This document shows, piece by piece, positions 26,324-55,183 of a stretch of 64,000 nt of DNA. How positions within the stretch are numbered: the first letter of the stretch is position 1; every line of letters begins with the position of its first letter. A model generated the notes under the pieces. The model was not told where the DNA came from, did not search any database, and saw only the letters and a list, made by a program, of their open reading frames with translations. The position numbers were made by a program, and so were the translations under genes. Where the stretch lies: NCBI GenBank assembly GCA_043228905.1, contig JBHGNT010000010.1, positions 13,888,001 through 13,952,000 on the forward strand. The letters are read 5' to 3'. The stretch is from Azolla caroliniana. Its lineage: Eukaryota; Plantae; Polypodiophyta.

Positions 26324-26379
<56 letters not shown>

Positions 26380-30900: not shown

Positions 30901-33572
30901 CGAGGAGACGGCTTACGCGCAAAGAGAAAGGGAAGAAGAAGGTGTCGGATTCCGGCACCGATAAGAATGAGTCAGACCGACGCGAGTCCGACTCCGAGGG
31001 AACCGGTGACGAGTCTTTAAAAGTGAAGACCGCGTCGACCGAGAAGGCCTTGACATCGGCTAATACGAGATTACGCCGATCTACCCGCCAGAAGAACCCT
31101 GTTTTGCGGTTCGGATACAACGAGTACATGGCGCATCATTATGGAAGTGGAAGTGCGTGAGCCGGAGAGCTACGCAGAAGCGGCTAAAGACGCGAATTGG
31201 GGTGCCGCGATGGAGGAAGCGATGCACGCATTGGCGGAGAACGAGACCTGGGACCTAGTTGACGCACCGAAGGGGGTAAAACCGATCAGGTGTAGGTGGG
31301 TGTACAAGGTCAAGTACAACACCGATGGCTCGGTCAACCGGTACAAGGCTCGGCTAGTGGCAAAGGGCTACGCGCAGAAACACGGCATTGACTACGATGA
31401 GACGTTTGCGCCGGTCGCGAAAATGACGATTGTCCGTGTTTTGCGGCCAAGGGGTGGCACCTACATCAAATGGATGTAAAGAATGCGTTCCCGCAAGGTG
31501 ACCTTGAGGAACAAGTGTACATGGTACAACCCCTCGGATTTCACTCCGGAACGAACTCCCCGGCAGTATGCGGACTGTAGAAGTCCCTTTACGGACTGAA
31601 ACAAGCCCCGCGTGCTTGGAATGCGAAGATCACGCAACAACTGCGTTGGATGGGCTTCATCACGTCAAAATCGGACTCTTCCCTGTTCATCCGGAAAGGT
31701 CGACTCGGACCAGTTAGTATTTTACTATATGTTGATAACTTGGTCATCACCGGCGTCGACCTAGGTGAAATCGACCGCGTGAAGCTCCAGCTTGCGGCAT
31801 CGTTCGACATGAAGGATCTGGGGGACCTTCATTACTTCCTCGGGATCGAAGTGATCCATACCCCTGAAGGCATTTTGATCAGCCAACGTCATTACGTGCT
31901 AGGTATGCTCTTCAAACTCGGGATGGTCGACTGTAAGTCCGTCTCGACTCCTCTGGACAGAACTGTCAAGCTTCGTCCCGATACGGGAAATGTATGTGAC
32001 CCGATGAGGTTCCGACAAATTGTCGGAAGCCTCATATACTTGACCATCACCCGACCCGACCTCAGTTATCCGGTCGGGGTGATCAGTCAGTTCATGGCGC
32101 GACCTACCAAGGAGCACCTTCAGTGTGCGCAACGCGTACTGCGGTACGTAAGTGGCACTAAGGATCGAGGACTGCTATATCGGACCAGTGCAGCCGCGCA
32201 GTTAGTCGGCTACACTGATGTTGATTGGGTTGGCAATGCCGCGGATTGCCAATCCACGTCTGGATACACGTTCTCCCTCGGGAGTGCCGCGATCGCGTGG
32301 AGCAGTAAGAAGCAGCCGACAGTTGCACTGTCGAGCACCGAAGCTGAGTACCGAGGAGCGGCTGTCGCGACATGCGAAGCCATATGGTTGAAGCGGCTAC
32401 TTAAGGACCTGCAAGAGGAGGTGACCGATCCAACGACGATCTACTGCGACAACCTCAGCAGCATCCAACTCGCAAAGAACCCCGTCTTCCACGCACGGAC
32501 CAAGCACATTGAGGTGCACTACCATTTCGTCCGTGAGCGTGTCCTTTCCGGTGAAGTTCAACTTCAGTACGTTCCGACGGATCTGCAGGCTGCCAACATC
32601 TTCACCAAGCCTCTTGGTTTGGACAAGTTGCGGCAATTCTCAGCTGCGCTCGGATTGCGTCACCTTGACGTGCCGAACTTGAGGGGGAGAACAGTCCCGA
32701 ACAACCAAGCAAGGCAGCAGGAAAGGAGCAGAGACCGTGACATCGAGTTGGTTGACAAGTTCGACTTCGGATCGGCTGAAGAAGCCGAGGGCGGACCCGC
32801 GGAAAAGTTCGGAAGCAGACAGAAGGGGAGCAACCGAAGGAGAGAGCCGAAGCCAACCACGCATGGGGAAGATGACGCCATTGAGGGCGAGAAGACCGAA
32901 GACGAGTTGGAGACAGCCAACTCGGACGAGAGCGAAAACCGATCGGAGGTAGCCGAGTCGGTTCGGATGTTTGATTCAGACACGTTGAATCAACCGAGGC
33001 CGAAGCGGAAGAAAAGGCAGCAGAAGAAGTGTTGACACCGCAACAACAGAAGAGCTGATAAGGAATGCATGAGCAGACAAGCCGACCGGAAGGGTCGAAG
33101 CGTGCGGAGTCGAACAGGTCGAGGAGCGCGAGCGAGGCGTGAAGCCAAGAGGAACTAGAGCTGTGAGCTCGAGGATCCCGAAGAGCCTCGAGTTAAGCTT
33201 GAGGGGGAGTGTTGAGAGACAAGCTCAACATCGGCCGGTTCGGCTGAAGAATCCGAGGACCGGATCGGTTGGGACCGATCGGTTAGGCCGAGTGCGTAAA
33301 CCGGGAGGTCGTTAGGAAAGATATTCCGTGAGGAATATACTTGGGAGTTAGTGTAGGAGCTCTTGATTAGCATTGAAGTACTGTCAGTACTTCGGTCAGT
33401 CCTTCTAGGACTTGTAAAGACTGAGTATTATTATTGAATATAGTTTTTTGTGTCTTCTCTCACTCTCTCTGTCTCTCCTGCGTATACCGTGTAAGCTCAA
33501 GCTCTCCATTGAACTTGAGTTTCCTTCCTTCTGTTCGGTCTTCATACTTGCTTCTGCACGTTACTTTCTACA
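27982..33572 (+). mobile_element. Full-length Copia LTR retrotransposon E inserted in C2 RT
   Basis: LTRs 27982-28374 and 33210-33572, PBS TGGTATCAGAGC at 28375, PPT GAGGGGGAG at 33201, TSD ATAAC (27977-27981 / 33573-33577). Confidence 0.96.
28447..33035 (+). pseudogene. Gag-Pol of E (Gag, CCHC, PR, IN, RT, RH) with stops and frameshifts
   Basis: [46 protein letters not shown] (YVDD mutated) and KHIEVHYHF, in Copia domain order. Confidence 0.93.
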
Positions 33573-33577
33573 ATAAC

Positions 33578-36500
33578 ATAGTATCCTTTGCGCGCACTGA
33601 AAGTTTTCAACCGTAGGCTGTGACATGAATCGACTAGTTAGGCTGACTGGATAACTAAGATCAAGCCGAATAATCGTCAGATAGATAAGGCTTTCGACAA
33701 TCTGTCGTAATCGTGTCAGGTTGCATGCCTTACCCAAATCTCGGCGAAGCTTGAAGGTTTTGTCCAAAGGGGTCAAGATGGGCTTACAATTTGCCATCCC
33801 GAACTTGAAGAGCATACGCCTTCGGGGGTATGGATCACTTCGATCCCGAGGAAGTAATGAAGGTCTCCGAGATCCTTCATTTCAAATGATGCCGCAAGCT
33901 GAGACTTCACGCAGCGGATTTCGTCAAGGTCGGCACCAGCGATGACTAAATCATCAACGTACAAGAGTAGGCTGACTGGTCCATATTGTCCTTGCCGAAA
34001 AAATAGAGAAGAGTTCGATTTCGACGACGCAAACCCCATCCTACGCAAGTACTGCGTAATCTTTGCGTTCCAAGCTCGCGGGGCTTGCTTTAGTTCATAC
34101 AAGGATTTCTTCAATCGGCAAACTGCCGAGGTGTTTTGTTCGGATAGAAATCCGGGGGCTGTACCATGTACACCTGTTCCTCAAGATCACCTTGCAGGAA
34201 CGCGTGCTTTACATCCATTTGATGTAGGTGCCACCCCTTTTCCGCTGCTACCGCGACCAAAACACGAACGGTCGTCATCTTCGCGACAGGCACGAAGGTC
34301 TCGTCATAGTCCATGCCATGCTTCTGCGCATAGCCTTTTGTTACTAAACGGGCCTTGTAGAGATTGATGGAGCCGTTCGTGTTGTGTTTCACTTTATACA
34401 CCCATCGGCAGCCGATCGGCTTCACACCCTTCGGTGCATCAACCAGGTCCCATGTCTCGTTCTGCATTAAGGCGTGCATCTCTTCCTCCATTGCGAAACG
34501 CCAATTTGCGTCTTTCGCCGCTTCTACGTACCTCTCCGGCTCACGCACTTCCGCCACTCGCGTCATGTACACGTAATGGTGCGCCATGTACTCAATATAC
34601 CCGTATCTCTTTACGGGGTTCTTCTAGCGGGTAGATCGGCGTAATTCGTGATTACCCGATTTCACGACTTGTTCGGCTGATTTTGACCTCTTCCGTGGAG
34701 GTTCCTTCTCGACTGGCTTGATGTCAGATTCGCTTCGAACTGACTCAACACTACCGAAATCGTATTCCGGTGTCTTCTTCTTGCCCTTCTCCTTGCACAT
34801 AAACTGTCACCTCGGTTCCTTACGCGGGGACATTACGGCCGAGTCTCCACTACTCGCCGTGTCATCATCTGGTTGGCCATCTCGGCCCAACACCTCATTC
34901 GGCCCGCTTAGCTGAAATGAGATCGGACTCTCTCTCAGAGCTCCAATTTTGTCATCGTGCGGAGGCATTTCAGCCTCACTGATTTCTTCTTCAGAAATCG
35001 GATTGGAAGTGAGGTCCGAAGTCGGAGGCAATTACCAGGACGCGGACTCGTCAAACACAATGTCGCGGCTCACATGCGCTTGTTTGGTGCGTGGGTTATA
35101 ACACTTATAAACCTTCTGCTCCTCCGAATAGCTGACCAAGATACAGTTCTCGGCTTTCGCGTCCAACTTCCTCTGTTTCTCCTTCAGCACGTAGCATATA
35201 CACGATGCTGCCGAAAATCCTCAAGTGTGCCAAGTTCGGTTTCTTCCCGAAGTACAGCTCATGTGACGACAATCCTCCATTAGCAGAAGTTCGATTCTGT
35301 AGGTAGATGGCCGTCTTTACCACTTCAGCCCAATAGAATTTTGGCATATGCTTCTCTTCAAGCATTGCCCTGGCCTCTTCTTCAATTGTCCGATTCTTCC
35401 GCTCGGCCACGCCGTTCTGCTGCGGTGTGTATCTACACAAGAATTCGCATCGAATTCCCTCCTTCTGTAGATAACATGTGAACTGGTCGGAGAAGTACTG
35501 CTTCCCGCCATCGGACCATAGGCATTTGATCTTACGCCCCATTTCCCTTCAGGAAACATGCGAAGACGTCGCTCTTCTTCTCAATCATGCATGCCCATGT
35601 GTGCCGAGTGAAGTCATCAATGAAGGTTACAAAGTAACGGCTTCCACCAAGACTCATGTTTTGTGTCGAACCCCACACATCCGAATGGATCAAATCCAGT
35701 GGACTTCGACTACAATTACACTCATTTGGGAATCGAAGTCGGTGTTGTTTTCCCATCTGACAAGCTTCACAGACTTGGCCATTCCGGCCACGAAATTTCG
35801 GCAACCCGAAAACAATGTTCTTCGTCTGCTTTTCACGAAGCTGTGGGAAATTTACGTGGCCGAACCGCTTGTGCCACAGGTCGATATCCGACTCGAGCCT
35901 TTGTCCTTTCGCGTACAACACAGTTCCGGCTTGATTAGTGTCGAGGATAAACATCCTCCCTTCACAGGGCCCTTGCGCGATCACTTTGCCTTCATGTTCG
36001 ATGAAGCAGCCGAGATGCGTGAATCGAGCTTGCATACCTTGGTCAACGATCTTTCCGACCGACACAAGGTTCTTTGTTATTGTTGGGACGTGCATTACAT
36101 TCATTAGCTTCCCTTTCTGCCCAATGTGGCTGAGGGGGACTTCGCCGACATGTTCGATGGTATGCAGAGTGTCATCGCCGGTTTCGACCATTCCTCGTGA
36201 TTCCGGCTTCTCCAAGTATGAGAACCATTCCTCATGGCTCGTCATATGATTTGACGCTCCGGAATCCACATACCACACCTCACTCGATTTCGAGGTGTTC
36301 ACGGCCATTGAATTGGCTTTATGCTTCATTACAAAGGCTGGGCCCGATTTGTTTCCGGCTCGTTCAGAGCCTTCTGTGTAGTGCAATCTCTGACGCCTAT
36401 ATGCGTCTTTTCGGCCCGATTCGGCTTTGTCTGAATCAGCTCTCTTTTTCGAGCACTCGCTCTCCTTGTGGCCTTTCTTGCCACAGTACCAGCATTCCGA

Positions 36501-37078
36501 TGAAGTCTTCTCTTGCCGTGTTCTAGCGCCGCCATGACTCCCCTTGCTTGCGGAGGGTACGGAATTGCTTCCGGCATCTCGATTATGCCGTACATTCTGC
36601 TCTTTTTGGCCGCCCCCATTGTGCGCCGATCCACCTCATCCACTACGACCATGGGGCCTATCATCCTCCGTGTAAAGCATCTTGCCATCGCCGTGCGCAC
36701 TCGTCCACGCACCTGCGTGGTTTTCTTCTACGAGCAACATTGACTGAAGCTCGAAAAATGAAGGCATAATCTCCCTCGTGTAGACTACCGTTCGGAAAGG
36801 TCCAAAGTTTGACACCAAGCCACCAAGACAAACCTGCACCATTTCATCTTCCTCGACGTTCACGTTCACGGAGGCAAGGGACTCGCAGATTTCTTTGATC
36901 TTGGTGGTGTAATCAGCAACCGACATATCTCTTTGTTGTACATTGCTGAGATCCTATCTGAGCTGCATCTTTCTGGCCGTTGTGCTGGCGGCGAAAATCC
37001 TTTTGAGATTTGCCCATGCGTCCTTCGCCATCTTGGCATCCCGAATATAGCTTAGAAGTTGATCACTCACACAGGATG
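33578..37078 (-). pseudogene. Gag-PR-IN-RT of C2 (degenerate)
   Basis: Minus-strand ORFs contain YVDSGASNHM, IHSDVWG, QNGVAERKN, YKARLV and LYVDDL. Confidence 0.92.
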
Positions 37079-37717
37079 TGTGAAAGTGTTTTTAGAATTA
37101 AAGGTATTGAAGTCTACAAAAATATAAGGTATGGAGCATTCACACCCGAAGGCCAAGAACACGAGCTAAGGTTTCAAGTATAAGTCAAACTAAAAGCAAG
37201 AAAGATGGAGAAAAGTCAAAGAAGAAAAAAACGGGCCACCAAAATACAGTCTACAACGAACGACCATAACTCATTCGTTTGGAAGCCAAATATAATGTGC
37301 AAATATGGGTTAGAAAGCTTATGACGAGAGCTATCCGTAGCTTTTTAAAACTCTAAATTTGGAACATGGATGAGGGAGATATGACGATTAGAAGATCGTT
37401 GTGTCATAGCTAAGAATAGGAGATGGAAAAGCTCTAAAAAAAGCGTGGAAAAGAAAGCAAGCGAAACTTATCTACTAGAGGAGAACTTCATATAAAGCAA
37501 GAAGAGTGAGGTGGTGAGGAGAGCTTTTTTCTTGTGATGTTTTTCTTGCCTATTCATGTAGTGCGTTTTTCTAGTGATCAATTCATCCTTGTAGGCTTGA
37601 GTTTATGTATCTTCTTTCTCTTGTTTCTATGATCATCACTCCTTATTAATATATCTTTGTAGATTTGGGTTTCTATATCTTCCTTCTCTCTCTTTTCTAT
37701 CATCATCTCTCTTTTCA
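37079..37717 (+). repeat. LTR 1 of tandem array
   Basis: TG...CA ends with inverted termini TGTGAAAG/CTTTTCA; TATA-like CATATAAA near 37489. Confidence 0.9.
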
Positions 37718-37721
37718 TTTT

Positions 37722-37745
37722 TGGCGCTCCAGGGAGGGTCGATCC
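37722..37745 (+). promoter_or_regulatory. PBS of array element (tRNA 3' end complement, possibly tRNA-Asn)
   Basis: Reverse complement GGATCGACCCTCCCTGGAGCGCCA resembles a tRNA T-arm, acceptor stem and CCA end. The tRNA identity is inferred. Confidence 0.7.
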
Positions 37746-37814
37746 TTTCTGTATAACGGGAGGAACGGTTGTCCACTAATTGATGGTTGGATCTACCGAT
37801 TCATCATCAAACTA

Positions 37815-39275
37815 ATGGCAAGATATGGAGTTCGCGATGCGACAGATCTACGAAGAGAACTTTTCCAATTGCGTATGGTTTCACCAATGTGCTACCTCGA
37901 GTATGAGAAGACGTTTTTGGATATATGGTCCACTTGGATTGGACTTGTTGGAGGCGTTGAAGATGTATACTTCAAGATGGAAAGATTCAAAGCAGGGCTA
38001 GATCCATATTTTCAATATGAAGTGCATATGAAGTACCCAAGGTCTTTCCATGATTTGCTTCGAGTATGTCAAAGTTATGATCAACAATTGAAGAAGTTGT
38101 TATTCGGTGAAGCATATGGAGTATCGGCGTCATATACCATAAATCCAAGCTATAATAATTGTGGATCGGTCATGAGCCAACAACCAGCCTACTTGCAATG
38201 TCCGATTCAACAGGTTCCCTCATATCATTATTCTAATTTTTGGAGTTATAATGATGTCTATGAAGGTGATTCCAGAGACAATGAAGAAGAGGTGATGAAT
38301 GTGGAGTCCCCCCATCTAGTTCATGAGGACAACCATGATATAAAGAATGATGATGTGAAAGACGAATCTAAGGAGATTGTTATGAGAAGCGATGTTATGG
38401 ATGGTGATGCCAATGTACATCATGTTGAGGACATTATTGATACAACAAGCGATATGGTGGTTGATGATGAATATGTGCAAGATGAAATGGAAGATATGAC
38501 AAAAGAAGTTGTTGATGGTGAAGTACCCACAACGAAGTTGCAAGATGAAGAAGGTAACCTAGAAGTGATAGCTGGAGATTGGCTTTTGGAGATCAATGCG
38601 TGTAAGGAAGCATTGGTAAGTGCCAAGTTGCAGTGTATGAAGGTGTTCGTGCATGATTTATGTTTTGGATTTGCATTGAGTAGCAACAAAGTTATGTGGG
38701 CATCAACTCTTCAACAACAATTTGATCAAGAGAAAAGAGAATTACTTGCAATGCATGATTGGAGTATCATGAACTTATCACCATCAAAGGATCCACCACA
38801 ACTAATCAAATGTATAAAGGAGAAGGAATCATCTATCGACAATAGCAATCAAGAAGAGGAAAGCATAACAATTGATGAATCTTCATGGGATAGGGAAAAC
38901 AAATCATTCCACATGGTGTCTAAGGAGGAAGAAGAAGTCATTGAAGAGAAAAGCATTATCACCTTGGAGAAGATGATTTCAAGCTATATCCAAGGAGAAG
39001 AGCATCTAAGGTTTAGTTCTTTTCTTTTTGAGTTTCCAAAATTACTCATAAATGTCTATTCACATATAAAAGGAGAAGGTTGCTTCAAAGACCTTATCAA
39101 ATTGAAGGTACCAATTGCCCAAACTCTTCAAGAATCTAAGGTTGTGCAAAAGAAAGATAATAAAGCATTGTTACAAGAGAGTTTCATTTATCATATGGAG
39201 AATTTGAAGTTTGTCTCACTTATTGTGGTTGTTCCAAAGGAGAAAGACGTCAACTTCCAACCCTTGAATGATTAA
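37815..39275 (+). CDS. Gag-derived protein (capsid C-terminal part, acidic linker, RT N-terminal relics), 486 aa from first ATG; copy 1
   Basis: RRELFQLR...EYEKTF...KMERFKAGLDP...PRSF resembles Retrotrans_gag; FVSLIVVVPKEK..NFQPLN resembles the RT motif WxSPIVVVPKK..DYRxLN. Confidence 0.7.
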   Translation: MARYGVRDATDLRRELFQLRMVSPMCYLEYEKTFLDIWSTWIGLVGGVEDVYFKMERFKAGLDPYFQYEVHMKYPRSFHDLLRVCQSYDQQLKKLLFGEAYGVSASYTINPSYNNCGSVMSQQPAYLQCPIQQVPSYHYSNFWSYNDVYEGDSRDNEEEVMNVESPHLVHEDNHDIKNDDVKDESKEIVMRSDVMDGDANVHHVEDIIDTTSDMVVDDEYVQDEMEDMTKEVVDGEVPTTKLQDEEGNLEVIAGDWLLEINACKEALVSAKLQCMKVFVHDLCFGFALSSNKVMWASTLQQQFDQEKRELLAMHDWSIMNLSPSKDPPQLIKCIKEKESSIDNSNQEEESITIDESSWDRENKSFHMVSKEEEEVIEEKSIITLEKMISSYIQGEEHLRFSSFLFEFPKLLINVYSHIKGEGCFKDLIKLKVPIAQTLQESKVVQKKDNKALLQESFIYHMENLKFVSLIVVVPKEKDVNFQPLND

Positions 39276-40569
39276 ACCAAACGAGATTTATTTTTGCTTC
39301 CTTTTCGAGATGAGATTCTAGATGAAATGGTCATACATACAAAACAAGGTAATGTGAAGAATGTGGTGTGCCAAGAAGAAAGTCATGTTGATGAAGCAAA
39401 GATCGACGTAATTCAAAATATGACAATTCTGACAAGTATCGAAGCTTTAAAGGTATTTGTACAAAAGGTTCGCTCGCTTGAAAGATTTATTCATATGTTA
39501 ACATGCTTACTTCTATCAAGAGTTATGTATCACATAGACCTACTTCTGTTTGGAAAGTTGATGAAGATATACTAATTGTTGTAACCTCTTTCTTTGTGTT
39601 GACAAGGAGAAAGATGGTGATGGCAATTGTCAATGTGTATGTGTGTGTGTTTAGAAGTGTGAGGTTTTTCCTATCGACTAGCGGGGGTTTTATTCACATA
39701 GTTTGTTTCTTTTCTATTTATTTTCTCCTTCTTTGTCTATAGCCATGAATAAGACGAAGGAGAACCTTTAGTTTTATTAGTAGCTTAGGGTTCACCATAA
39801 ATGGTTCACCAAAAAGCAAGGGGGAGGGCTAAATGTGAAAGTGTTTTTAGAATTAAAGGTATTGAAGTCTACAAAAATATAAGGTATGGAGCATTCACAC
39901 CCGAAGGCCAAGAACACGAGCTAAGGTTTCAAGTATAAGTCAAACTAAAAGCAAGAAAGATGGAGAAAAGTCAAAGAAGAAAAAAACGGGCCACCAAAAT
40001 ATAGTCTACAACGAACGCCCATAACTCATTCGTTTGGAAGCCAAATATAATGTGCAAATATGGGTTAGAAAGCTTATGACGAGAGCTATCCGTAGCTTTT
40101 TAAAACTCTAAATTTGGAACATGGATGAGGGAGATATGACGATTAGAAGATCGTTGTGTCATAGCTAAGAATAGGAGATGGAAAAGCTCTAAAAAAAGCG
40201 TGGAAAAGAAAGCAAGCGAAACTTATCTACTAGAGGAGAACTTCATATAAAGCAAGAAGAGTGAGGTGGTGAGGAGAGCTTTTTTCTTGTGATGTTTTTC
40301 TTGCCTATTCATGTAGTGCGTTTTTCTAGTGATCAATTCATCCTTGTAGGCTTGAGTTTATGTATCTTCTTTCTCTTGTTTCTATGATCATCACTCCTTA
40401 TTAATATATCTTTGTAGATTTGGGTTTCTATATCTTCCTTCTCTCTCTTTTCTATCATCATCTCTCTTTTCATTTTTGGCGCTCCAGGGAGGGTCGATCC
40501 TTTCTGTATAACGGGAGGAACGGTTGTCCACTAATTGATGGTTGGATCTACCGATTCATCATCAAACTA

Positions 40570-42030
40570 ATGGCAAGATATGGAGTTCGCGATGCGACAG
40601 ATCTACGAAGAGAACTTTTCCAATTGCGTATGGTTTCACCAATGTGCTACCTCGAGTATGAGAAGACGTTTTTGGATATATGGTCCACTTGGATTGGACT
40701 TGTTGGAGGCGTTGAAGATGTATACTTCAAGATGGAAAGATTCAAAGCAGGGCTAGATCCATATTTTCAATATGAAGTGCATATGAAGTACCCAAGGTCT
40801 TTCCATGATTTGCTTCGAGTATGTCAAAGTTATGATCAACAATTGAAGAAGTTGTTATTCGGTGAAGCATATGGAGTATCGGCGTCATATACCATAAATC
40901 CAAGCTATAATAATTGTGGATCGGTCATGAGCCAACAACCAGCCTACTTGCAATGTCCGATTCAACAGGTTCCCTCATATCATTATTCTAATTTTTGGAG
41001 TTATAATGATGTCTATGAAGGTGATTCCAGAGACAATGAAGAAGAGGTGATGAATGTGGAGTCCCCCCATCTAGTTCATGAGGACAACCATGATATAAAG
41101 AATGATGATGTGAAAGACGAATCTAAGGAGATTGTTATGAGAAGCGATGTTATGGATGGTGATGCCAATGTACATCATGTTGAGGACATTATTGATACAA
41201 CAAGCGATATGGTGGTTGATGATGAATATGTGCAAGATGAAATGGAAGATATGACAAAAGAAGTTGTTGATGGTGAAGTACCCACAACGAAGTTGCAAGA
41301 TGAAGAAGGTAACCTAGAAGTGATAGCTGGAGATTGGCTTTTGGAGATCAATGCGTGTAAGGAAGCATTGGTAAGTGCCAAGTTGCAGTGTATGAAGGTG
41401 TTCGTGCATGATTTATGTTTTGGATTTGCATTGAGTAGCAACAAAGTTATGTGGGCATCAACTCTTCAACAACAATTTGATCAAGAGAAAAGAGAATTAC
41501 TTGCAATGCATGATTGGAGTATCATGAACTTATCACCATCAAAGGATCCACCACAACTAATCAAATGTATAAAGGAGAAGGAATCATCTATCGACAATAG
41601 CAATCAAGAAGAGGAAAGCATAACAATTGATGAATCTTCATGGGATAGGGAAAACAAATCATTCCACATGGTGTCTAAGGAGGAAGAAGAAGTCATTGAA
41701 GAGAAAAGCATTATCACCTTGGAGAAGATGATTTCAAGCTATATCCAAGGAGAAGAGCATCTAAGGTTTAGTTCTTTTCTTTTTGAGTTTCCAAAATTAC
41801 TCATAAATGTCTATTCACATATAAAAGGAGAAGGTTGCTTCAAAGACCTTATCAAATTGAAGGTACCAATTGCCCAAACTCTTCAAGAATCTAAGGTTGT
41901 GCAAAAGAAAGATAATAAAGCATTGTTACAAGAGAGTTTCATTTATCATATGGAGAATTTGAAGTTTGTCTCACTTATTGTGGTTGTTCCAAAGGAGAAA
42001 GACGTCAACTTCCAACCCTTGAATGATTAA
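40570..42030 (+). CDS. Gag-derived protein, copy 2
   Basis: Translation identical to copy 1. Confidence 0.7.
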   Translation: MARYGVRDATDLRRELFQLRMVSPMCYLEYEKTFLDIWSTWIGLVGGVEDVYFKMERFKAGLDPYFQYEVHMKYPRSFHDLLRVCQSYDQQLKKLLFGEAYGVSASYTINPSYNNCGSVMSQQPAYLQCPIQQVPSYHYSNFWSYNDVYEGDSRDNEEEVMNVESPHLVHEDNHDIKNDDVKDESKEIVMRSDVMDGDANVHHVEDIIDTTSDMVVDDEYVQDEMEDMTKEVVDGEVPTTKLQDEEGNLEVIAGDWLLEINACKEALVSAKLQCMKVFVHDLCFGFALSSNKVMWASTLQQQFDQEKRELLAMHDWSIMNLSPSKDPPQLIKCIKEKESSIDNSNQEEESITIDESSWDRENKSFHMVSKEEEEVIEEKSIITLEKMISSYIQGEEHLRFSSFLFEFPKLLINVYSHIKGEGCFKDLIKLKVPIAQTLQESKVVQKKDNKALLQESFIYHMENLKFVSLIVVVPKEKDVNFQPLND

Positions 42031-43324
42031 ACCAAACGAGATTTATTTTTGCTTCCTTTTCGAGATGAGATTCTAGATGAAATGGTCATACATACAAAAC
42101 AAGGTAATGTGAAGAATGTGGTGTGCCAAGAAGAAAGTCATGTTGATGAAGCAAAGATCGACGTAATTCAAAATATGACAATTCTGACAAGTATCGAAGC
42201 TTTAAAGGTATTTGTACAAAAGGTTCGCTCGCTTGAAAGATTTATTCATATGTTAACATGCTTACTTCTATCAAGAGTTATGTATCACATAGACCTACTT
42301 CTGTTTGGAAAGTTGATGAAGATATACTAATTGTTGTAACCTCTTTCTTTGTGTTGACAAGGAGAAAGATGGTGATGGCAATTGTCAATGTGTATGTGTG
42401 TGTGTTTAGAAGTGTGAGGTTTTTCCTATCGACTAGCGGGGGTTTTATTCACATAGTTTGTTTCTTTTCTATTTATTTTCTCCTTCTTTGTCTATAGCCA
42501 TGAATAAGACGAAGGAGAACCTTTAGTTTTATTAGTAGCTTAGGGTTCACCATAAATGGTTCACCAAAAAGCAAGGGGGAGGGCTAAATGTGAAAGTGTT
42601 TTTAGAATTAAAGGTATTGAAGTCTACAAAAATATAAGGTATGGAGCATTCACACCCGAAGGCCAAGAACACGAGCTAAGGTTTCAAGTATAAGTCAAAC
42701 TAAAAGCAAGAAAGATGGAGAAAAGTCAAAGAAGAAAAAAACGGGCCACCAAAATATAGTCTACAACGAACGCCCATAACTCATTCGTTTGGAAGCCAAA
42801 TATAATGTGCAAATATGGGTTAGAAAGCTTATGACGAGAGCTATCCGTAGCTTTTTAAAACTCTAAATTTGGAACATGGATGAGGGAGATATGACGATTA
42901 GAAGATCGTTGTGTCATAGCTAAGAATAGGAGATGGAAAAGCTCTAAAAAAAGCGTGGAAAAGAAAGCAAGCGAAACTTATCTACTAGAGGAGAACTTCA
43001 TATAAAGCAAGAAGAGTGAGGTGGTGAGGAGAGCTTTTTTCTTGTGATGTTTTTCTTGCCTATTCATGTAGTGCGTTTTTCTAGTGATCAATTCATCCTT
43101 GTAGGCTTGAGTTTATGTATCTTCTTTCTCTTGTTTCTATGATCATCACTCCTTATTAATATATCTTTGTAGATTTGGGTTTCTATATCTTCCTTCTCTC
43201 TCTTTTCTATCATCATCTCTCTTTTCATTTTTGGCGCTCCAGGGAGGGTCGATCCTTTCTGTATAACGGGAGGAACGGTTGTCCACTAATTGATGGTTGG
43301 ATCTACCGATTCATCATCAAACTA

Positions 43325-44785
43325 ATGGCAAGATATGGAGTTCGCGATGCGACAGATCTACGAAGAGAACTTTTCCAATTGCGTATGGTTTCACCAATGT
43401 GCTACCTCGAGTATGAGAAGACGTTTTTGGATATATGGTCCACTTGGATTGGACTTGTTGGAGGCGTTGAAGATGTATACTTCAAGATGGAAAGATTCAA
43501 AGCAGGGCTAGATCCATATTTTCAATATGAAGTGCATATGAAGTACCCAAGGTCTTTCCATGATTTGCTTCGAGTATGTCAAAGTTATGATCAACAATTG
43601 AAGAAGTTGTTATTCGGTGAAGCATATGGAGTATCGGCGTCATATACCATAAATCCAAGCTATAATAATTGTGGATCGGTCATGAGCCAACAACCAGCCT
43701 ACTTGCAATGTCCGATTCAACAGGTTCCCTCATATCATTATTCTAATTTTTGGAGTTATAATGATGTCTATGAAGGTGATTCCAGAGACAATGAAGAAGA
43801 GGTGATGAATGTGGAGTCCCCCCATCTAGTTCATGAGGACAACCATGATATAAAGAATGATGATGTGAAAGACGAATCTAAGGAGATTGTTATGAGAAGC
43901 GATGTTATGGATGGTGATGCCAATGTACATCATGTTGAGGACATTATTGATACAACAAGCGATATGGTGGTTGATGATGAATATGTGCAAGATGAAATGG
44001 AAGATATGACAAAAGAAGTTGTTGATGGTGAAGTACCCACAACGAAGTTGCAAGATGAAGAAGGTAACCTAGAAGTGATAGCTGGAGATTGGCTTTTGGA
44101 GATCAATGCGTGTAAGGAAGCATTGGTAAGTGCCAAGTTGCAGTGTATGAAGGTGTTCGTGCATGATTTATGTTTTGGATTTGCATTGAGTAGCAACAAA
44201 GTTATGTGGGCATCAACTCTTCAACAACAATTTGATCAAGAGAAAAGAGAATTACTTGCAATGCATGATTGGAGTATCATGAACTTATCACCATCAAAGG
44301 ATCCACCACAACTAATCAAATGTATAAAGGAGAAGGAATCATCTATCGACAATAGCAATCAAGAAGAGGAAAGCATAACAATTGATGAATCTTCATGGGA
44401 TAGGGAAAACAAATCATTCCACATGGTGTCTAAGGAGGAAGAAGAAGTCATTGAAGAGAAAAGCATTATCACCTTGGAGAAGATGATTTCAAGCTATATC
44501 CAAGGAGAAGAGCATCTAAGGTTTAGTTCTTTTCTTTTTGAGTTTCCAAAATTACTCATAAATGTCTATTCACATATAAAAGGAGAAGGTTGCTTCAAAG
44601 ACCTTATCAAATTGAAGGTACCAATTGCCCAAACTCTTCAAGAATCTAAGGTTGTGCAAAAGAAAGATAATAAAGCATTGTTACAAGAGAGTTTCATTTA
44701 TCATATGGAGAATTTGAAGTTTGTCTCACTTATTGTGGTTGTTCCAAAGGAGAAAGACGTCAACTTCCAACCCTTGAATGATTAA
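43325..44785 (+). CDS. Gag-derived protein, copy 3
   Basis: Translation identical to copy 1. Confidence 0.7.
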   Translation: MARYGVRDATDLRRELFQLRMVSPMCYLEYEKTFLDIWSTWIGLVGGVEDVYFKMERFKAGLDPYFQYEVHMKYPRSFHDLLRVCQSYDQQLKKLLFGEAYGVSASYTINPSYNNCGSVMSQQPAYLQCPIQQVPSYHYSNFWSYNDVYEGDSRDNEEEVMNVESPHLVHEDNHDIKNDDVKDESKEIVMRSDVMDGDANVHHVEDIIDTTSDMVVDDEYVQDEMEDMTKEVVDGEVPTTKLQDEEGNLEVIAGDWLLEINACKEALVSAKLQCMKVFVHDLCFGFALSSNKVMWASTLQQQFDQEKRELLAMHDWSIMNLSPSKDPPQLIKCIKEKESSIDNSNQEEESITIDESSWDRENKSFHMVSKEEEEVIEEKSIITLEKMISSYIQGEEHLRFSSFLFEFPKLLINVYSHIKGEGCFKDLIKLKVPIAQTLQESKVVQKKDNKALLQESFIYHMENLKFVSLIVVVPKEKDVNFQPLND

Positions 44786-46079
44786 ACCAAACGAGATTTA
44801 TTTTTGCTTCCTTTTCGAGATGAGATTCTAGATGAAATGGTCATACATACAAAACAAGGTAATGTGAAGAATGTGGTGTGCCAAGAAGAAAGTCATGTTG
44901 ATGAAGCAAAGATCGACGTAATTCAAAATATGACAATTCTGACAAGTATCGAAGCTTTAAAGGTATTTGTACAAAAGGTTCGCTCGCTTGAAAGATTTAT
45001 TCATATGTTAACATGCTTACTTCTATCAAGAGTTATGTATCACATAGACCTACTTCTGTTTGGAAAGTTGATGAAGATATACTAATTGTTGTAACCTCTT
45101 TCTTTGTGTTGACAAGGAGAAAGATGGTGATGGCAATTGTCAATGTGTATGTGTGTGTGTTTAGAAGTGTGAGGTTTTTCCTATCGACTAGCGGGGGTTT
45201 TATTCACATAGTTTGTTTCTTTTCTATTTATTTTCTCCTTCTTTGTCTATAGCCATGAATAAGACGAAGGAGAACCTTTAGTTTTATTAGTAGCTTAGGG
45301 TTCACCATAAATGGTTCACCAAAAAGCAAGGGGGAGGGCTAAATGTGAAAGTGTTTTTAGAATTAAAGGTATTGAAGTCTACAAAAATATAAGGTATGGA
45401 GCATTCACACCCGAAGGCCAAGAACACGAGCTAAGGTTTCAAGTATAAGTCAAACTAAAAGCAAGAAAGATGGAGAAAAGTCAAAGAAGAAAAAAACGGG
45501 CCACCAAAATATAGTCTACAACGAACGCCCATAACTCATTCGTTTGGAAGCCAAATATAATGTGCAAATATGGGTTAGAAAGCTTATGACGAGAGCTATC
45601 CGTAGCTTTTTAAAACTCTAAATTTGGAACATGGATGAGGGAGATATGACGATTAGAAGATCGTTGTGTCATAGCTAAGAATAGGAGATGGAAAAGCTCT
45701 AAAAAAAGCGTGGAAAAGAAAGCAAGCGAAACTTATCTACTAGAGGAGAACTTCATATAAAGCAAGAAGAGTGAGGTGGTGAGGAGAGCTTTTTTCTTGT
45801 GATGTTTTTCTTGCCTATTCATGTAGTGCGTTTTTCTAGTGATCAATTCATCCTTGTAGGCTTGAGTTTATGTATCTTCTTTCTCTTGTTTCTATGATCA
45901 TCACTCCTTATTAATATATCTTTGTAGATTTGGGTTTCTATATCTTCCTTCTCTCTCTTTTCTATCATCATCTCTCTTTTCATTTTTGGCGCTCCAGGGA
46001 GGGTCGATCCTTTCTGTATAACGGGAGGAACGGTTGTCCACTAATTGATGGTTGGATCTACCGATTCATCATCAAACTA

Positions 46080-47540
46080 ATGGCAAGATATGGAGTTCGC
46101 GATGCGACAGATCTACGAAGAGAACTTTTCCAATTGCGTATGGTTTCACCAATGTGCTACCTCGAGTATGAGAAGACGTTTTTGGATATATGGTCCACTT
46201 GGATTGGACTTGTTGGAGGCGTTGAAGATGTATACTTCAAGATGGAAAGATTCAAAGCAGGGCTAGATCCATATTTTCAATATGAAGTGCATATGAAGTA
46301 CCCAAGGTCTTTCCATGATTTGCTTCGAGTATGTCAAAGTTATGATCAACAATTGAAGAAGTTGTTATTCGGTGAAGCATATGGAGTATCGGCGTCATAT
46401 ACCATAAATCCAAGCTATAATAATTGTGGATCGGTCATGAGCCAACAACCAGCCTACTTGCAATGTCCGATTCAACAGGTTCCCTCATATCATTATTCTA
46501 ATTTTTGGAGTTATAATGATGTCTATGAAGGTGATTCCAGAGACAATGAAGAAGAGGTGATGAATGTGGAGTCCCCCCATCTAGTTCATGAGGACAACCA
46601 TGATATAAAGAATGATGATGTGAAAGACGAATCTAAGGAGATTGTTATGAGAAGCGATGTTATGGATGGTGATGCCAATGTACATCATGTTGAGGACATT
46701 ATTGATACAACAAGCGATATGGTGGTTGATGATGAATATGTGCAAGATGAAATGGAAGATATGACAAAAGAAGTTGTTGATGGTGAAGTACCCACAACGA
46801 AGTTGCAAGATGAAGAAGGTAACCTAGAAGTGATAGCTGGAGATTGGCTTTTGGAGATCAATGCGTGTAAGGAAGCATTGGTAAGTGCCAAGTTGCAGTG
46901 TATGAAGGTGTTCGTGCATGATTTATGTTTTGGATTTGCATTGAGTAGCAACAAAGTTATGTGGGCATCAACTCTTCAACAACAATTTGATCAAGAGAAA
47001 AGAGAATTACTTGCAATGCATGATTGGAGTATCATGAACTTATCACCATCAAAGGATCCACCACAACTAATCAAATGTATAAAGGAGAAGGAATCATCTA
47101 TCGACAATAGCAATCAAGAAGAGGAAAGCATAACAATTGATGAATCTTCATGGGATAGGGAAAACAAATCATTCCACATGGTGTCTAAGGAGGAAGAAGA
47201 AGTCATTGAAGAGAAAAGCATTATCACCTTGGAGAAGATGATTTCAAGCTATATCCAAGGAGAAGAGCATCTAAGGTTTAGTTCTTTTCTTTTTGAGTTT
47301 CCAAAATTACTCATAAATGTCTATTCACATATAAAAGGAGAAGGTTGCTTCAAAGACCTTATCAAATTGAAGGTACCAATTGCCCAAACTCTTCAAGAAT
47401 CTAAGGTTGTGCAAAAGAAAGATAATAAAGCATTGTTACAAGAGAGTTTCATTTATCATATGGAGAATTTGAAGTTTGTCTCACTTATTGTGGTTGTTCC
47501 AAAGGAGAAAGACGTCAACTTCCAACCCTTGAATGATTAA
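46080..47540 (+). CDS. Gag-derived protein, copy 4
   Basis: Translation identical to copy 1. Confidence 0.7.
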   Translation: MARYGVRDATDLRRELFQLRMVSPMCYLEYEKTFLDIWSTWIGLVGGVEDVYFKMERFKAGLDPYFQYEVHMKYPRSFHDLLRVCQSYDQQLKKLLFGEAYGVSASYTINPSYNNCGSVMSQQPAYLQCPIQQVPSYHYSNFWSYNDVYEGDSRDNEEEVMNVESPHLVHEDNHDIKNDDVKDESKEIVMRSDVMDGDANVHHVEDIIDTTSDMVVDDEYVQDEMEDMTKEVVDGEVPTTKLQDEEGNLEVIAGDWLLEINACKEALVSAKLQCMKVFVHDLCFGFALSSNKVMWASTLQQQFDQEKRELLAMHDWSIMNLSPSKDPPQLIKCIKEKESSIDNSNQEEESITIDESSWDRENKSFHMVSKEEEEVIEEKSIITLEKMISSYIQGEEHLRFSSFLFEFPKLLINVYSHIKGEGCFKDLIKLKVPIAQTLQESKVVQKKDNKALLQESFIYHMENLKFVSLIVVVPKEKDVNFQPLND

Positions 47541-48756
47541 ACCAAACGAGATTTATTTTTGCTTCCTTTTCGAGATGAGATTCTAGATGAAATGGTCATA
47601 CATACAAAACAAGGTAATGTGAAGAATGTGGTGTGCCAAGAAGAAAGTCATGTTGATGAAGCAAAGATCGACGTAATTCAAAATATGACAATTCTGACAA
47701 GTATCGAAGCTTTAAAGGTATTTGTACAAAAGGTTCGCTCGCTTGAAAGATTTATTCATATGTTAACATGCTTACTTCTATCAAGAGTTATGTATCACAT
47801 AGACCTACTTCTGTTTGGAAAGTTGATGAAGATATACTAATTGTTGTAACCTCTTTCTTTGTGTTGACAAGGAGAAAGATGGTGATGGCAATTGTCAATG
47901 TGTATGTGTGTGTGTTTAGAAGTGTGAGGTTTTTCCTATCGACTAGCGGGGGTTTTATTCACATAGTTTGTTTCTTTTCTATTTATTTTCTCCTTCTTTG
48001 TCTATAGCCATGAATAAGACGAAGGAGAACCTTTAGTTTTATTAGTAGCTTAGGGTTCACCATAAATGGTTCACCAAAAAGCAAGGGGGAGGGCTAAATG
48101 TGAAAGTGTTTTTAGAATTAAAGGTATTGAAGTCTACAAAAATATAAGGTATGGAGCATTCACACCCGAAGGCCAAGAACACGAGCTAAGGTTTCAAGTA
48201 TAAGTCAAACTAAAAGCAAGAAAGATGGAGAAAAGTCAAAGAAGAAAAAAACGGGCCACCAAAATATAGTCTACAACGAACGCCCATAACTCATTCGTTT
48301 GGAAGCCAAATATAATGTGCAAATATGGGTTAGAAAGCTTATGACGAGAGCTATCCGTAGCTTTTTAAAACTCTAAATTTGGAACATGGATGAGGGAGAT
48401 ATGACGATTAGAAGATCGTTGTGTCATAGCTAAGAATAGGAGATGGAAAAGCTCTAAAAAAAGCGTGGAAAAGAAAGCAAGCGAAACTTATCTACTAGAG
48501 GAGAACTTCATATAAAGCAAGAAGAGTGAGGTGGTGAGGAGAGCTTTTTTCTTGTGATGTTTTTCTTGCCTATTCATGTAGTGCGTTTTTCTAGTGATCA
48601 ATTCATCCTTGTAGGCTTGAGTTTATGTATCTTCTTTCTCTTGTTTCTATGATCATCACTCCTTATTAATATATCTTTGTAGATTTGGGTTTCTATATCT
48701 TCCTTCTCTCTCTTTTCTATCATCATCTCTCTCGCAACCCTCGCGCTTTGATACCA

Positions 48757-49188
48757 TGTAAAAGAATACGTTATGCGGAAGCATGTGCGTAAGACACAGA
48801 GTGCACAGTTCGGGAGAATAAGACAGTTCGGTAAAACACAGAAAACGCAGAGATGGAGATGGAGAGACAAAGAGAGATTGAGTAGACAACAGAAAACTCC
48901 GATTCAAAATAATGCTCTGTTCAGTACATACACCGTGCTTAGTGAGCACCTTTTATACAAGCCCTAACAATAGGGCTGACACAAGTACTGGCAGTACTTG
49001 ACTGCTCATAAATGAGCCTACTACACTAACTCCCAAAATTATTCCTTACGAGGAATATCAAACTAACGACCTTCTAGTTTACGCACCGAAACGGCCACGT
49101 TATGCATACTATTTTACGCACCCAGTCTATGCACTGGGTTACGCACCGCACCGTATTACGCACTCAATGTTGAGCTTGTCACTCAACA
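48757..49188 (-). repeat. 5' LTR of C2
   Basis: TGTAAAAG...TCAACA ends; homologous to the reconstructed 24719-26854 LTR. Confidence 0.9.
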
Positions 49189-49823
49189 CGGCTCCCCAGC
49201 TCACCAGCTCACTTGCTCACTAGGTCACCAATCCGGCTCATCCTTCCGGATCCGGTTGAGCTTGCCGCTCAATAGGACCCATGCCAAGAAACCCGTTTGA
49301 ACAGAGAAAGGTTGAGACCGAACCAGACGTCGGTAAGCACGACGAGACGATAACCGGTCAAGCAATCGGCAAGCACGAAACCGGTGAAAGGGACCACAAT
49401 CCAGAGAAGGATCCATTCGGGCCGGATACGGATTAACAAAATTGTCTTAAAAATAAAAAATAAAAAATAAAAATCGAATCAGATCAAATCAAACCCAAAT
49501 CATGTGATGGCGAGGAGCGAACAGCCACATGCAATGACAAGGAGTGAACGGGCACTTCGAAAAGCCACGTAGTGGGCTATTTATAGCGCATTAAAACGCC
49601 GCCACATGGCACTTCATTGCTATTATAGTACACGACGTGCGCATGCGCAGAAATCGACAAAGGCTCCAACATGCAGAAAGAAAACCTCCACCGCATGGAG
49701 ACCTTCTCATTTCGCGAATAGAGAATTGCAAACGCACACAGGCAATTAAAGATAATCAGACGCGGGCACCCTTAGCCCACTAACGCACCTACCTCACCAG
49801 CACCCACCGACTCAGAATGAGAA

Positions 49824-53244: not shown

Positions 53245-53537
53245 AGGTTGATGGAAGAAGCAGAGGCGCGCCATGTAGAGGCCGTCCATTATTCGGCATC
53301 GGCCTGAATCCGGGAGGAGGTAGTGAAGACCTGAAACCGAAAGACTCTGGATTCTAGCCCTCAGTGCTAGAAGGCCTCTCCGGCGCATGGCTGAAGAGGG
53401 AAGAAGCGAACCCCGCGGAGTAGCGGGTCCGGAGGTCACCGGGTGGGACGACCCGGTACAGGAGAAGACCGGCTTCGTGGAAGCCGCGTGCTAGAACTAC
53501 GAAGTTCTGGTGGATGATAAGAGGGCAGGGTGTCATG

Positions 53538-53603
53538 ATATGGCAAGACTCGAACCCATGACCTTATGCTACATGGGTCGAGCTCTTACCATTAGACTAT
53601 GAA
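53538..53603 (-). ncRNA. tRNA-like Pol III promoter segment in LTR of H (repeated at ~57832-57897)
   Basis: Reverse strand reads TAGTCTAATGGTAAGAGC...AGGTCATGGGTTCGAGTC: A box, variable loop and B box at tRNA spacing. Confidence 0.55.
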
Positions 53604-54025
53604 TTGTATTTTGTAGGATATTATTTTCATTTATGCTTTATCATAGAAAATTGATGTATATTCCAGATCTCTCTGGAACATTCTAGAAGCTTCAGGATTA
53701 TTCCTAAAAACACTATAAAAGAAGGCACAAGGCATTGTTTTGAACCAAATTGGTTCAACACCAGTCTTAAGCCTCTTAGTCGATTTGTACTTATCTTTCA
53801 TATAATATAAGAGCTGCTGTCATCATCCTATTTCTCTCTCTCTCCTTTTCTCACTTCCTCTCTCTCGGGAATCTTACGCAGTCCCGTCCTCTTAGTACTA
53901 ATAGTACTACTCTTCTTAGTACTAATTCCATCTCTGTTTTAGTACTATTCCTGACAGTTTGAACCAATTTTTTCCTCTAGCCTACTTGTCACTCTCCCTC
54001 ATCCTCCTACCCTTTCCCCTATACT

Positions 54026-55183
54026 ATGGCTACTGTTAGCGCCCAAGAATACCAATCCGTTTTCTCCGAGCTACAGTGCCTAAAAGAAAAGTTTGTTGCC
54101 TTGGAACAAGAAAACCAACGGCTGATAGGGGATCTGCAACAAATCGCTCTAGAAAAACAACAAACGCAACAACAACATGGGGAGTTAGCGTTACGGGTAC
54201 AACAACTCGAAGCAGCATTGCAACAACAAGGATCCAGTCCCCAAGGATTTCATAAAGAGCCCAAGATTGGACTTCCTGTGAAATTTGATGGAACGCGTTC
54301 GCAATTTCGGGGATTCCTTAATCAGGTACGCTTAGTCATCCAGATGCATCCTTCCCGATATCCCACTGATGCATCTCGAGTCGGCCTAATAGGCACGCTG
54401 CTTAGCGGCTCAGCCTTGGCATGGTTCGCTCCGCTTCTAGAAAAACAATCGCCCTTGCTTAATAACTTTGAAGATTTTATTGGTGAGTTTAAAGCCTGCT
54501 TTGGAGACACCGACAGCATCAGGACGGCGATCAACAAGATCCGGCGATTGCGTCAAGGCGATCGTCCAGCCTCTGCCTACGCGGCGGATTTCCGCCTACT
54601 TGCTTCAGATATACCCTGGGATGATCAAGCACTAATGGAGCAGTTTCGCTATGGCTTGCGAAACGATGTCAAAGATCTACTTCTAACTTTCCCCGAAGAA
54701 CCAAAGTCTCTTACGGAGGCAATCAGTCGAGCAGTTCGATGTGACAACCGCCTTTTTGAACGGCGTTCAGAACGTCAATTACAGATACCACGCTCTAGGC
54801 CAGAGCCCACTTACGCCGCAGTCACGGCTAAACCGTTTGCACGAGACATACCTCAAGCAAATACTTCGACACCGATGGAGATCGATACCATGCGTCGACG
54901 CGGCCCGTTATCGGAAGAAGAAAAGCAACGACAACGTGCCAATCGATTATGCCTTTATTGCGGTGGACCAGGACATATCGCCATCAATTGTCCCCATAGG
55001 CCAAGAAGACAGGTAAATCAAATCGTCGCCTGTACTAAACCTGAGTCAATTCTTCCCTTCGGAGTGTCTGATAGTAGTAATAGTACTAATAGAGTGTCAG
55101 ATAGTATTCATAGTACTAATAGCCCAAGTATCTCAAATAAATTTGAAATCCTTAGTCAATTAGATGAAGAGTTAAACGATTGA
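54026..55183 (+). CDS. Gag of H (coiled coil, capsid, CCHC zinc knuckle)
   Basis: Intact 385-aa ORF with KFDGTRSQFRGFL, LRQG...YAADFR, PMEID and CLYCGGPGHIAINC. Confidence 0.92.
   Translation: MATVSAQEYQSVFSELQCLKEKFVALEQENQRLIGDLQQIALEKQQTQQQHGELALRVQQLEAALQQQGSSPQGFHKEPKIGLPVKFDGTRSQFRGFLNQVRLVIQMHPSRYPTDASRVGLIGTLLSGSALAWFAPLLEKQSPLLNNFEDFIGEFKACFGDTDSIRTAINKIRRLRQGDRPASAYAADFRLLASDIPWDDQALMEQFRYGLRNDVKDLLLTFPEEPKSLTEAISRAVRCDNRLFERRSERQLQIPRSRPEPTYAAVTAKPFARDIPQANTSTPMEIDTMRRRGPLSEEEKQRQRANRLCLYCGGPGHIAINCPHRPRRQVNQIVACTKPESILPFGVSDSSNSTNRVSDSIHSTNSPSISNKFEILSQLDEELND

What the first reader, a model, noticed from the sequence alone, without database searches (positions are those of the whole stretch)
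37079..48732. 11.65-kb head-to-tail array of a coding, non-autonomous LTR element sharing LTRs
Seen: LTR-int-LTR-int-LTR-int-LTR-int-LTR with exact 2755-bp period. Every unit has a PBS, a PPT and an identical ORF. No protease, YxDD, RNase H or integrase is present. The array is inserted antisense in the gag of C2. Established: tandem-array TRIMs and Gag-only TR-GAG elements exist. Inference: this is a protein-coding tandem array in which each unit is a complete mobilisable cassette, a parasite of a Gypsy helper caught becoming a satellite. Near identity implies very recent amplification.
Basis: partly seen in the sequence, partly recalled or inferred. Interest (0 to 1): 0.8.

Follow-up and report, generated by a model that had tools for sequence, protein, structure and literature searches.

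The report
Tandem-amplified parasitic Tat retrotransposon
Four identical copies of a crippled plant jumping gene sit head-to-tail sharing their terminal repeats, likely multiplied in place by DNA recombination after one copy landed; such arrays are well known, and the only unusual part is the gene they carry, half a capsid protein fused to polymerase scraps, whose reading frame relatives keep open.

Summary
The array is in the sequence: 5 LTRs, 4 internal regions, period 2,755 bp; units 2-5 identical, LTR1 differs at 2 sites. Corrections: no target-site duplication, LTR5 lacks its last 5 nt, and about 255 bp of the host Copia are missing at that end. The ORF is not a Gag precursor: it is a capsid C-terminal domain (predicted fold), an acidic linker, and protease/RT scraps without the catalytic palm. 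An intact Tat-type helper sharing LTR end, PBS and PPT region was found, and dispersed relatives exist. One private change in each outer LTR and a premature stop shared by all four units point to amplification of one inserted copy by recombination, not to a satellite in the making. Shared-LTR tandems, including the 5-LTR form, are published. Residual interest: relatives keep the frame open (about 9 stops expected, 1 seen) while amino acids drift almost neutrally. An assembly artefact is not excluded. The scan noted a non-coding three-LTR tandem earlier on other DNA.

The parts
37079..37717 (+). LTR1, 639 bp, TG...CA, TATA-like box at LTR position 413; differs from LTR2-5 at positions 169 and 185 (both in the likely U3)
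37722..37742 (+). Primer-binding site of unit 1, 4 nt behind the LTR; non-Met type (Asn-like from recall, not tested); same motif in 5 of 10 loci
37815..39275 (+). ORF of unit 1, 486 aa from ATG; no Pfam family
37833..38108 (+). Capsid C-terminal domain (aa 7-98; 58% identical to helper P0061 aa 79-170); N-terminal domain and zinc knuckle absent
38262..38594 (+). Acidic linker (34% D+E in aa 150-260), no match in the helper
38586..39272 (+). Decayed protease C-terminal half, linker and RT fingers (helper aa 499-761, 37% identity); protease DSG absent
39276..39548 (+). Same frame behind the premature stop: end of RT fingers joined to RT thumb (helper aa 764-784 then 902-951); catalytic palm with FIDD deleted; part of the ORF in relatives
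39811..39828 (+). Polypurine tract of unit 1, 5 nt before LTR2
39834..42588 (+). Unit 2 (LTR2 39834-40472, ORF 40570-42030)
42589..45343 (+). Unit 3 (LTR3 42589-43227, ORF 43325-44785)
45344..48098 (+). Unit 4 (LTR4 45344-45982, ORF 46080-47540)
48099..48732 (+). LTR5, lacking its last 5 nt; abuts a deletion in the host
48733..49215 (-). Host Copia: Met-type PBS (48745-48756) and 5' LTR; about 255 bp of leader and gag start missing at the junction
33580..37078 (-). Host Copia gag-pol, resuming at the left junction; itself broken by stops

Best explanation
This is a four-unit, shared-LTR tandem of a non-autonomous Gypsy element with a Tat-type helper, likely built in place after a single copy had inserted into an old Copia. 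Steps: (1) the family derives from a Tat-type element by loss of the capsid N-terminal domain, zinc knuckle, protease active site, RT palm, both RNase H domains and integrase (shown by alignment to an intact relative); (2) it likely borrows the helper's enzymes through a shared PBS, PPT region and LTR end (sharing shown, mobilisation inferred); (3) one copy inserted antisense in the Copia gag and its two LTRs each gained one change (inferred from allele polarity); (4) the block 'internal region + 3' LTR' was then likely multiplied by LTR-to-LTR recombination between sister chromatids, either repeated unequal exchange with the crossover downstream of LTR position 185 or one break-repair event that copied the unit several times; (5) a deletion removed the last 5 nt of LTR5, the target-site duplication and about 255 bp of host (shown), possibly in the same repair event (inferred). 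The family's ORF is likely kept open for translation as such (for example to protect the RNA from nonsense-mediated decay) more than for its protein sequence; the four units here have lost that property through a shared stop and are likely poor donors.
For: Array and differences. Polarity: at LTR position 169 the two informative loci L009 and L010 agree with LTR1, at 185 L009 and 94-99% of summed contig depth in X1 and X4 agree with LTR2-5; reverse transcription would give both outer LTRs the same U3 (established), so the LTR2-5 allele at 169 arose after insertion and before multiplication. One source unit: at five internal sites (38734, 38849, 39274, 39438, 39754) all four units carry a letter that differs in 5 of 5, 6 of 6, 4 of 4, 6 of 6 and 3 of 3 loci that cover them. 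No TSD here, whereas three neighbouring elements in the window have 5-bp TSDs. Helper: P0061, 1,730 aa, Gag-PR-RT-RH-aRH-INT intact; L006 has 77 of 77 LTR-end bases and the PBS of the window element with a Gag 91% identical to P0061; L002's aRH-integrase ORF (97% to P0061) is followed by the element's last 183 bp at 93% and the PPT. Frame: 172 distinct substitutions against L001-L004 gave 46 synonymous (39.5 +/- 5.2 expected, P 0.12) and 1 nonsense call against 9.2 expected (0 of 5,000 simulations at or below 1); codon-wise comparison found 0 stops in L001-L004 and all net ORF indels in them and in L008, L009 in frame. Literature: tandems with shared LTRs are common and polymorphic (PMC11899658).
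Against: No read spans the array or was seen across a junction, so unit number rests on the assembly. Polarity at position 169 rests on two loci only 81% and 75% identical in the LTR, plus the lack of a row in a cut table (699 rows hidden). Two differences give a wide age range. A sixth candidate site (38378) is the same in 4 of 4 loci, so not all rare-looking letters are private. Most published tandems keep their TSD (73 of 97 in beet); this one does not, so an extra event is needed. The four ORF relatives are collapsed short-read contigs, not independent, and were found with protein patterns, which favours open frames; 4 of the 10 loci (L005, L006, L007, L010) do carry stops or frameshifts. 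Pairwise dN/dS of 0.53-0.68 (P 0.015-0.077) leaves room for weak selection on the protein. No transcript was examined.
Confidence: 0.65

Rival explanations
1. The array was inserted ready-made: a read-through or circle-derived concatemeric RNA was reverse transcribed and integrated by the helper.
For: Proposed for tandems in PMC11899658 (discussion) and PMC7215508 (passages); mobilised TA-TRIMs with different TSDs reported in maize (10.1101/010850, passages). Perfect identity of units 2-5 fits.
Against: LTR1 should then equal LTR5 in U3; it differs twice, one difference being the family state. Both changes falling in one given LTR has probability 0.003 if spread evenly, unless one conversion event. 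No TSD and a clipped end; an 11-kb RNA exceeds the helper's coding length of about 5.2 kb.
Confidence: 0.1
2. Assembly artefact: one or two real units were expanded by the assembler.
For: Units 2-5 are 100% identical; no spanning read or contig seen; the family is multi-copy, which confuses assemblers. In X1 the contig depth carrying the window's letter at LTR position 139 is about 68, close to the 50-62 of host-specific pieces and not five times that, a weak hint since contigs drop rare variants.
Against: LTR1 keeps two own letters and all units keep letters rare in the family, so the assembly did not fill in the family majority; neighbouring repeats are assembled with intact TSDs; 11.7 kb is within long-read length (own knowledge).
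Confidence: 0.13
3. Integrase-independent recombination of new cDNA or one-LTR circles into the resident element, repeated several times.
For: Reported for yeast Ty1 as cited in PMC11899658 (background); explains shared LTRs without new TSDs.
Against: With tens of family copies as possible donors the units should differ; all four share five rare letters and the stop, so the donor would have to be this locus itself, which merges with the best explanation.
Confidence: 0.08
4. Incipient satellite: the unit is spreading as a tandem repeat through the genome.
For: Exact period and identity; L001 and L002 also read internal-LTR-internal.
Against: Four units only; L001 and L002 are short-read metagenome contigs that can loop through a shared LTR, and their neighbouring units are 78-84% identical or belong to other elements; LTR-end contigs are about 2.6-3.2 times deeper than internal ones in X1 and X4, not the roughly 1.25 of pure arrays (weak, as the helper shares the LTR).
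Confidence: 0.04

Closest known systems
Tandem LTR-retrotransposons with shared LTRs (Morales-Diaz et al. 2025, PMC11899658; main text read)
   Same: Alternating LTR and internal regions, high identity, Gypsy, coding domains, one locus of origin.
   Different: Here four units, non-autonomous, no TSD (10 of 28 rice cases had one), clipped last LTR with host deletion; host likely a fern.
Tandemly arranged non-autonomous elements: TA-TRIMs incl. the five-LTR four-internal form in maize (10.1101/010850, passages), Cassandra arrays (PMC7215508, passages), sugar beet families (PMC13570524, sections 27, 38, 42)
   Same: Same L5I4 architecture; beet has 97 tandem copies in 38 families with 3-21 LTRs, and 14 families with RT, RH or INT fragments.
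   Different: TRIMs are short and non-coding; this monomer is 3,394 bp with a 486-aa ORF. The sections read do not describe an ORF kept in frame across a deleted RT palm.
TR-GAG (PMC4350172, passages) and Gag-supplying partners Quinta (PMC11302176, abstract) and Sabrina/WHAM (PMC9744471, passages)
   Same: Under 4 kb, LTRs, PBS, PPT, one ORF with Gag similarity, depends on a helper.
   Different: Only the capsid C-terminal domain is left, no zinc knuckle, and RT and protease scraps are fused to it; it cannot supply a full Gag.
Tat lineage with aRH between RH and INT (PMC6317226, passages; fern cluster Tat D with the 'retroviral' structure, PMC13468544, passages)
   Same: The helper P0061 has RH (965-1095), aRH (1144-1265), integrase (1341-1509) in this order; non-Met PBS.
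   Different: The array element itself has lost these domains; no RT tree was built.
Ty1 p22/p18 and Drt2 capsid-CTD restriction factors (PMC8458377 and PMC10951436, abstracts)
   Same: Capsid C-terminal domain without the N-terminal domain; Drt2 is among the top fold matches (Z 9.1, rmsd 2.3, 85 residues).
   Different: Those are yeast Copia-type, with tested restriction; here the domain rides on a mobile Gypsy derivative, no purifying signal inside the family, no functional data.

Membership tests
Tandem LTR-retrotransposon (shared LTRs) | Alternating LTRs and internal regions, beginning and ending with an LTR | tested here: met
   (last LTR 5 nt short)
Tandem LTR-retrotransposon (shared LTRs) | Units highly similar, from one element | tested here: met
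Tandem LTR-retrotransposon (shared LTRs) | Flanking TSD (frequent, not universal) | tested here: not met
   10 of 28 in rice, 73 of 97 in beet have one
Tandem LTR-retrotransposon (shared LTRs) | Confirmed by spanning long reads | not testable with these tools
   only contigs offered
TRIM / TA-TRIM | Under 1.5 kb and non-coding | tested here: not met
   monomer 3,394 bp, 486-aa ORF; threshold
TR-GAG | Under 4 kb with LTRs, PBS, PPT, several copies | tested here: met
TR-GAG | ORF encodes a Gag precursor | tested here: not met
   only helper aa 79-170 matched; no Pfam Gag hit
TR-GAG | No similarity to protease, RT, RNase H, integrase | tested here: not met
   E 4e-19 to helper protease-RT region, E 3e-11 to RT thumb
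Tat (OTA Gypsy), for the helper | Additional RNase H domain in the polyprotein | tested here: met
   RVT_3 at 1144-1265 of P0061, E 1.9e-28
Tat (OTA Gypsy), for the helper | RT phylogeny inside Tat | not tested
   no reference set on hand
Tat (OTA Gypsy), for the helper | Identity of the primer tRNA | not tested
   Asn-like is recalled, from no call
p22/Drt2-type restriction factor | Capsid CTD fold without NTD | tested here: met
   predicted model pLDDT 80; top VIA matches capsid CTDs, Z 10.9 against 4.9 for the best unrelated row; Foldseek best E 0.034, none under 0.001
p22/Drt2-type restriction factor | Purifying selection on the domain | tested here: inconclusive
   13 missense and 5 synonymous among four relatives; few sites
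p22/Drt2-type restriction factor | Expressed, binds Gag, lowers transposition | not testable with these tools
   no raw RNA reads
Satellite DNA | Long arrays of many units | tested here: not met
   four units; rest of genome not held

The most novel reading that the evidence does not exclude
The family is a mobile defective-interfering retrotransposon: it makes a capsid C-terminal domain with a long acidic tail that co-assembles with, and blocks or redirects, the particles of its Tat helper, a plant counterpart of yeast p22/Drt2 that spreads by parasitising the element it restrains, and it swaps LTRs to follow whichever helper is active; tandem amplification raises its dose.
Probability: 0.12. 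Interest if true: 0.75.

Novelty: new variant of a known kind. Interest (0 to 1): 0.35.

Why it matters
As an array it adds one clean case to a known class, with allele polarity that favours growth after insertion, a point that PMC11899658 left open. The family is the more useful lead: an ORF that has lost every enzyme yet avoids stops and frameshifts makes it testable whether non-autonomous elements keep reading frames for RNA survival or for a capsid-derived regulator.

Tried and rejected
Whole genome not held. Pfam found nothing in the ORF, whole or in three pieces; Rfam nothing in the window; Tandem Repeats Finder misses the array because its longest period is 500. The Atlas does not hold the window's protein; with homologue P0001 the best hit was a plant RT polyprotein cluster at 0.90 with 124 of 256 features, a lead only. 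Laying contigs on the right junction was inconclusive: no bridging piece among 32 listed of 1,125; the left junction could not be read from the cut tables. Contig depth was used as a rough hint only. L001 and L002 were rejected as proof of further tandems (possible graph loops). A microhomology of about 3 nt at the deletion is plausible from the 72% paralogue but cannot be shown without the intact allele. No complex prediction was run: capsid CTD pairs would pass by likeness to solved structures. Searches for frame-only selection or NMD avoidance in non-autonomous LTR elements (5 papers; 35 papers, 15 listed) showed no matching title or abstract start; listings only, and subscription papers are not covered. 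Searches were read as listings; no supplements were opened. Earlier findings by sequence and by place gave nothing.
Full report
1. Observation. Self-alignment shows one 8,899-bp match at 99.978% with offset 2,755 and its harmonics, from 37079 to 48732. Cut at the period, units 2, 3, 4 and the fifth LTR are letter-identical; unit 1 differs only at LTR positions 169 and 185. The LTR runs from TG at 37079 to CA at 37717 (639 bp), followed by four T and a primer-binding site; a purine tract lies 5 nt before each next LTR. The same LTR start after the same tract occurs in 5 of 5 loci positions examined that have a tract. LTR5 ends 5 nt early. No 4-6 bp duplication joins the two ends at any tested offset, while three neighbouring elements have 5-bp TSDs. 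The host is a minus-strand Copia; against its paralogue in the window it lacks about 255 bp between its PBS and the left junction.

2. The ORF. It has 486 codons from the ATG and no Pfam match. A search returned 7 proteins among 3,667 candidates, 5 of them full-length at 82-87%; the profile-free search of cluster representatives gave 53 hits, the longer ones Gag or RT proteins. A search with the full Gag of locus L006 among longer proteins found 2 of 3,713 candidates, both complete polyproteins. P0061 (1,730 aa, cluster of 76) has Gag, zinc knuckle, protease with DSG, RT with FIDD, RNase H, an additional RNase H and integrase, the Tat arrangement (PMC6317226, passages), which PMC13468544 (passages) gives for ferns; an earlier unchecked note calls this genome a fern. 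Mapped on P0061, the ORF holds aa 79-170 (58%), then an unmatched acidic stretch, then aa 499-761 (37%); the frame behind the stop holds aa 764-784 joined to 902-951. So the N-terminal capsid domain, knuckle, protease site, RT palm, RNase H domains and integrase are gone. The first 100 residues are predicted to fold as a capsid C-terminal domain (pLDDT 80; top matches Copia capsid, PEG10, Arc, Drt2, Z 9-11; Foldseek agrees in rank but without E below 0.001). All 10 full-length relatives listed run on past the place of the window's stop.

3. Family and helper. L004 is a 5' end inside another element, L009 a 3' end, L003 a 5'-cut copy in unrelated sequence: dispersed relatives exist. L006 shares the last 77 LTR bases exactly and the PBS; L002's aRH-integrase ORF is followed by the element's last 183 bp and tract. 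This meets the PBS, PPT and LTR-end criteria used for wheat partners (PMC9744471, passages); co-timing and co-expression were not tested. In public runs, contigs identical to the internal region have depth near 3,000 in X1 and 1,300 in X4, against 50-62 for host-specific pieces in X1: tens of copies as a rough hint, since contig depth is no copy number.

4. Selection. Against L001-L004, dN/dS is 0.53-0.68 with P 0.015-0.077, no stops, and all net indels in frame, whereas 3' non-coding indels are often not. Pooling 172 distinct substitutions and simulating the same spectrum, synonymous changes are not clearly in excess (46 against 39.5), but stops are depleted (1 call against 9.2; 0 of 5,000 runs). 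The capsid part shows 13 missense and 5 synonymous changes. Against the helper the RT fingers have fallen further (55% against 85% between the two helpers) than the capsid domain (58% against 69%). I read this as selection mainly for an open frame, perhaps against nonsense-mediated decay (inference; the stop doubles the distance to the LTR from 285 to 558 nt), with a possible minor role of the capsid domain. Caveats: four non-independent collapsed contigs, found by protein patterns; 4 of 10 loci are broken.

5. How the array arose. Reverse transcription copies one U3 to both ends (established). At position 169 relatives agree with LTR1, at 185 with LTR2-5: one private change per original LTR, the 3' one then copied four times. 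Five internal letters rare in the family, the stop among them, are in all four units. Outer LTR divergence is 0.32%, unit divergence below 0.05%. This favours multiplication of one resident copy by LTR-to-LTR recombination (0.65) over insertion of a concatemer (0.10), cDNA recombination (0.08), a spreading satellite (0.04) and an assembly artefact (0.13), which I could not test: only contigs were available and none listed spans a junction.

6. Comparison. Shared-LTR tandems are common and polymorphic in plants, mostly Gypsy and coding (PMC11899658, main text); non-autonomous beet families have 97 such copies with 3-21 LTRs and some keep RT scraps (PMC13570524, three sections); the five-LTR form was validated in maize (10.1101/010850, passages). 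The element fails the TRIM and TR-GAG definitions (PMC4350172, passages) and is best filed as a non-autonomous Tat derivative. It resembles Ty1 p22 and Drt2 in keeping only the capsid C-terminal domain (abstracts), without functional evidence. Two literature searches for frame-only selection in such elements showed no matching listing; this is weak evidence of absence.

7. Verdict. Real in the sequence, architecture known, satellite reading unsupported; the ORF makes it a new variant. Interest 0.35; the boldest reading, a mobile interfering capsid domain, has probability 0.12.

Noticed in passing
L001:877-1611, L002:2075-2785, L004:1248-1953: Internal regions 89-96% identical to the window's sit behind a second LTR type with no BLAST match to the window's LTR, while PBS, PPT and the first five LTR bases are shared: apparent LTR swapping between subfamilies. 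L004 shows the 5' end of such a copy inserted in another Gypsy's protease region.
   Followed up: partly
L002:1-6916: One contig reads helper 3' end, LTR, non-autonomous unit, second LTR (78% identical), helper-like Gag; P0005 and helper member P0072 both list a longest contig of 8,880 bases. Either mixed helper-parasite tandems or assembly paths through shared LTRs.
   Followed up: partly
L005, L006, L007, L010; P0006, P0007: Sister non-autonomous subfamilies share the fingers-to-thumb RT deletion but keep more of Gag and a dead protease, so the RT deletion predates loss of the capsid N-terminal domain.
   Followed up: partly
P0016, P0019, P0027: Database proteins that by eye repeat a Gag unit two or three times (self-BLAST listed only the diagonal); they may be gene models across similar tandem arrays in other genomes.
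   Followed up: no
window 53531-58250: Young Gypsy (LTRs 99.8%, 5-bp TSD) without a TGG primer site, with a pol ORF in which Pfam finds RNase H and integrase but no RT, and an exact 98-bp duplication at 56876-57073.
   Followed up: no
window 7735-14843: Apparently intact chromovirus (1,339-aa pol with chromodomain, LTRs 99.4%, 5-bp TSD) with an 83-bp tandem repeat in its leader at 8642-8975.
   Followed up: no
window 25891-49215: The host Copia is an old nest: a second Copia (27982-33572, 5-bp TSD) sits in its RNase H region and a further insert splits its 3' LTR at 26103-26645.
   Followed up: partly
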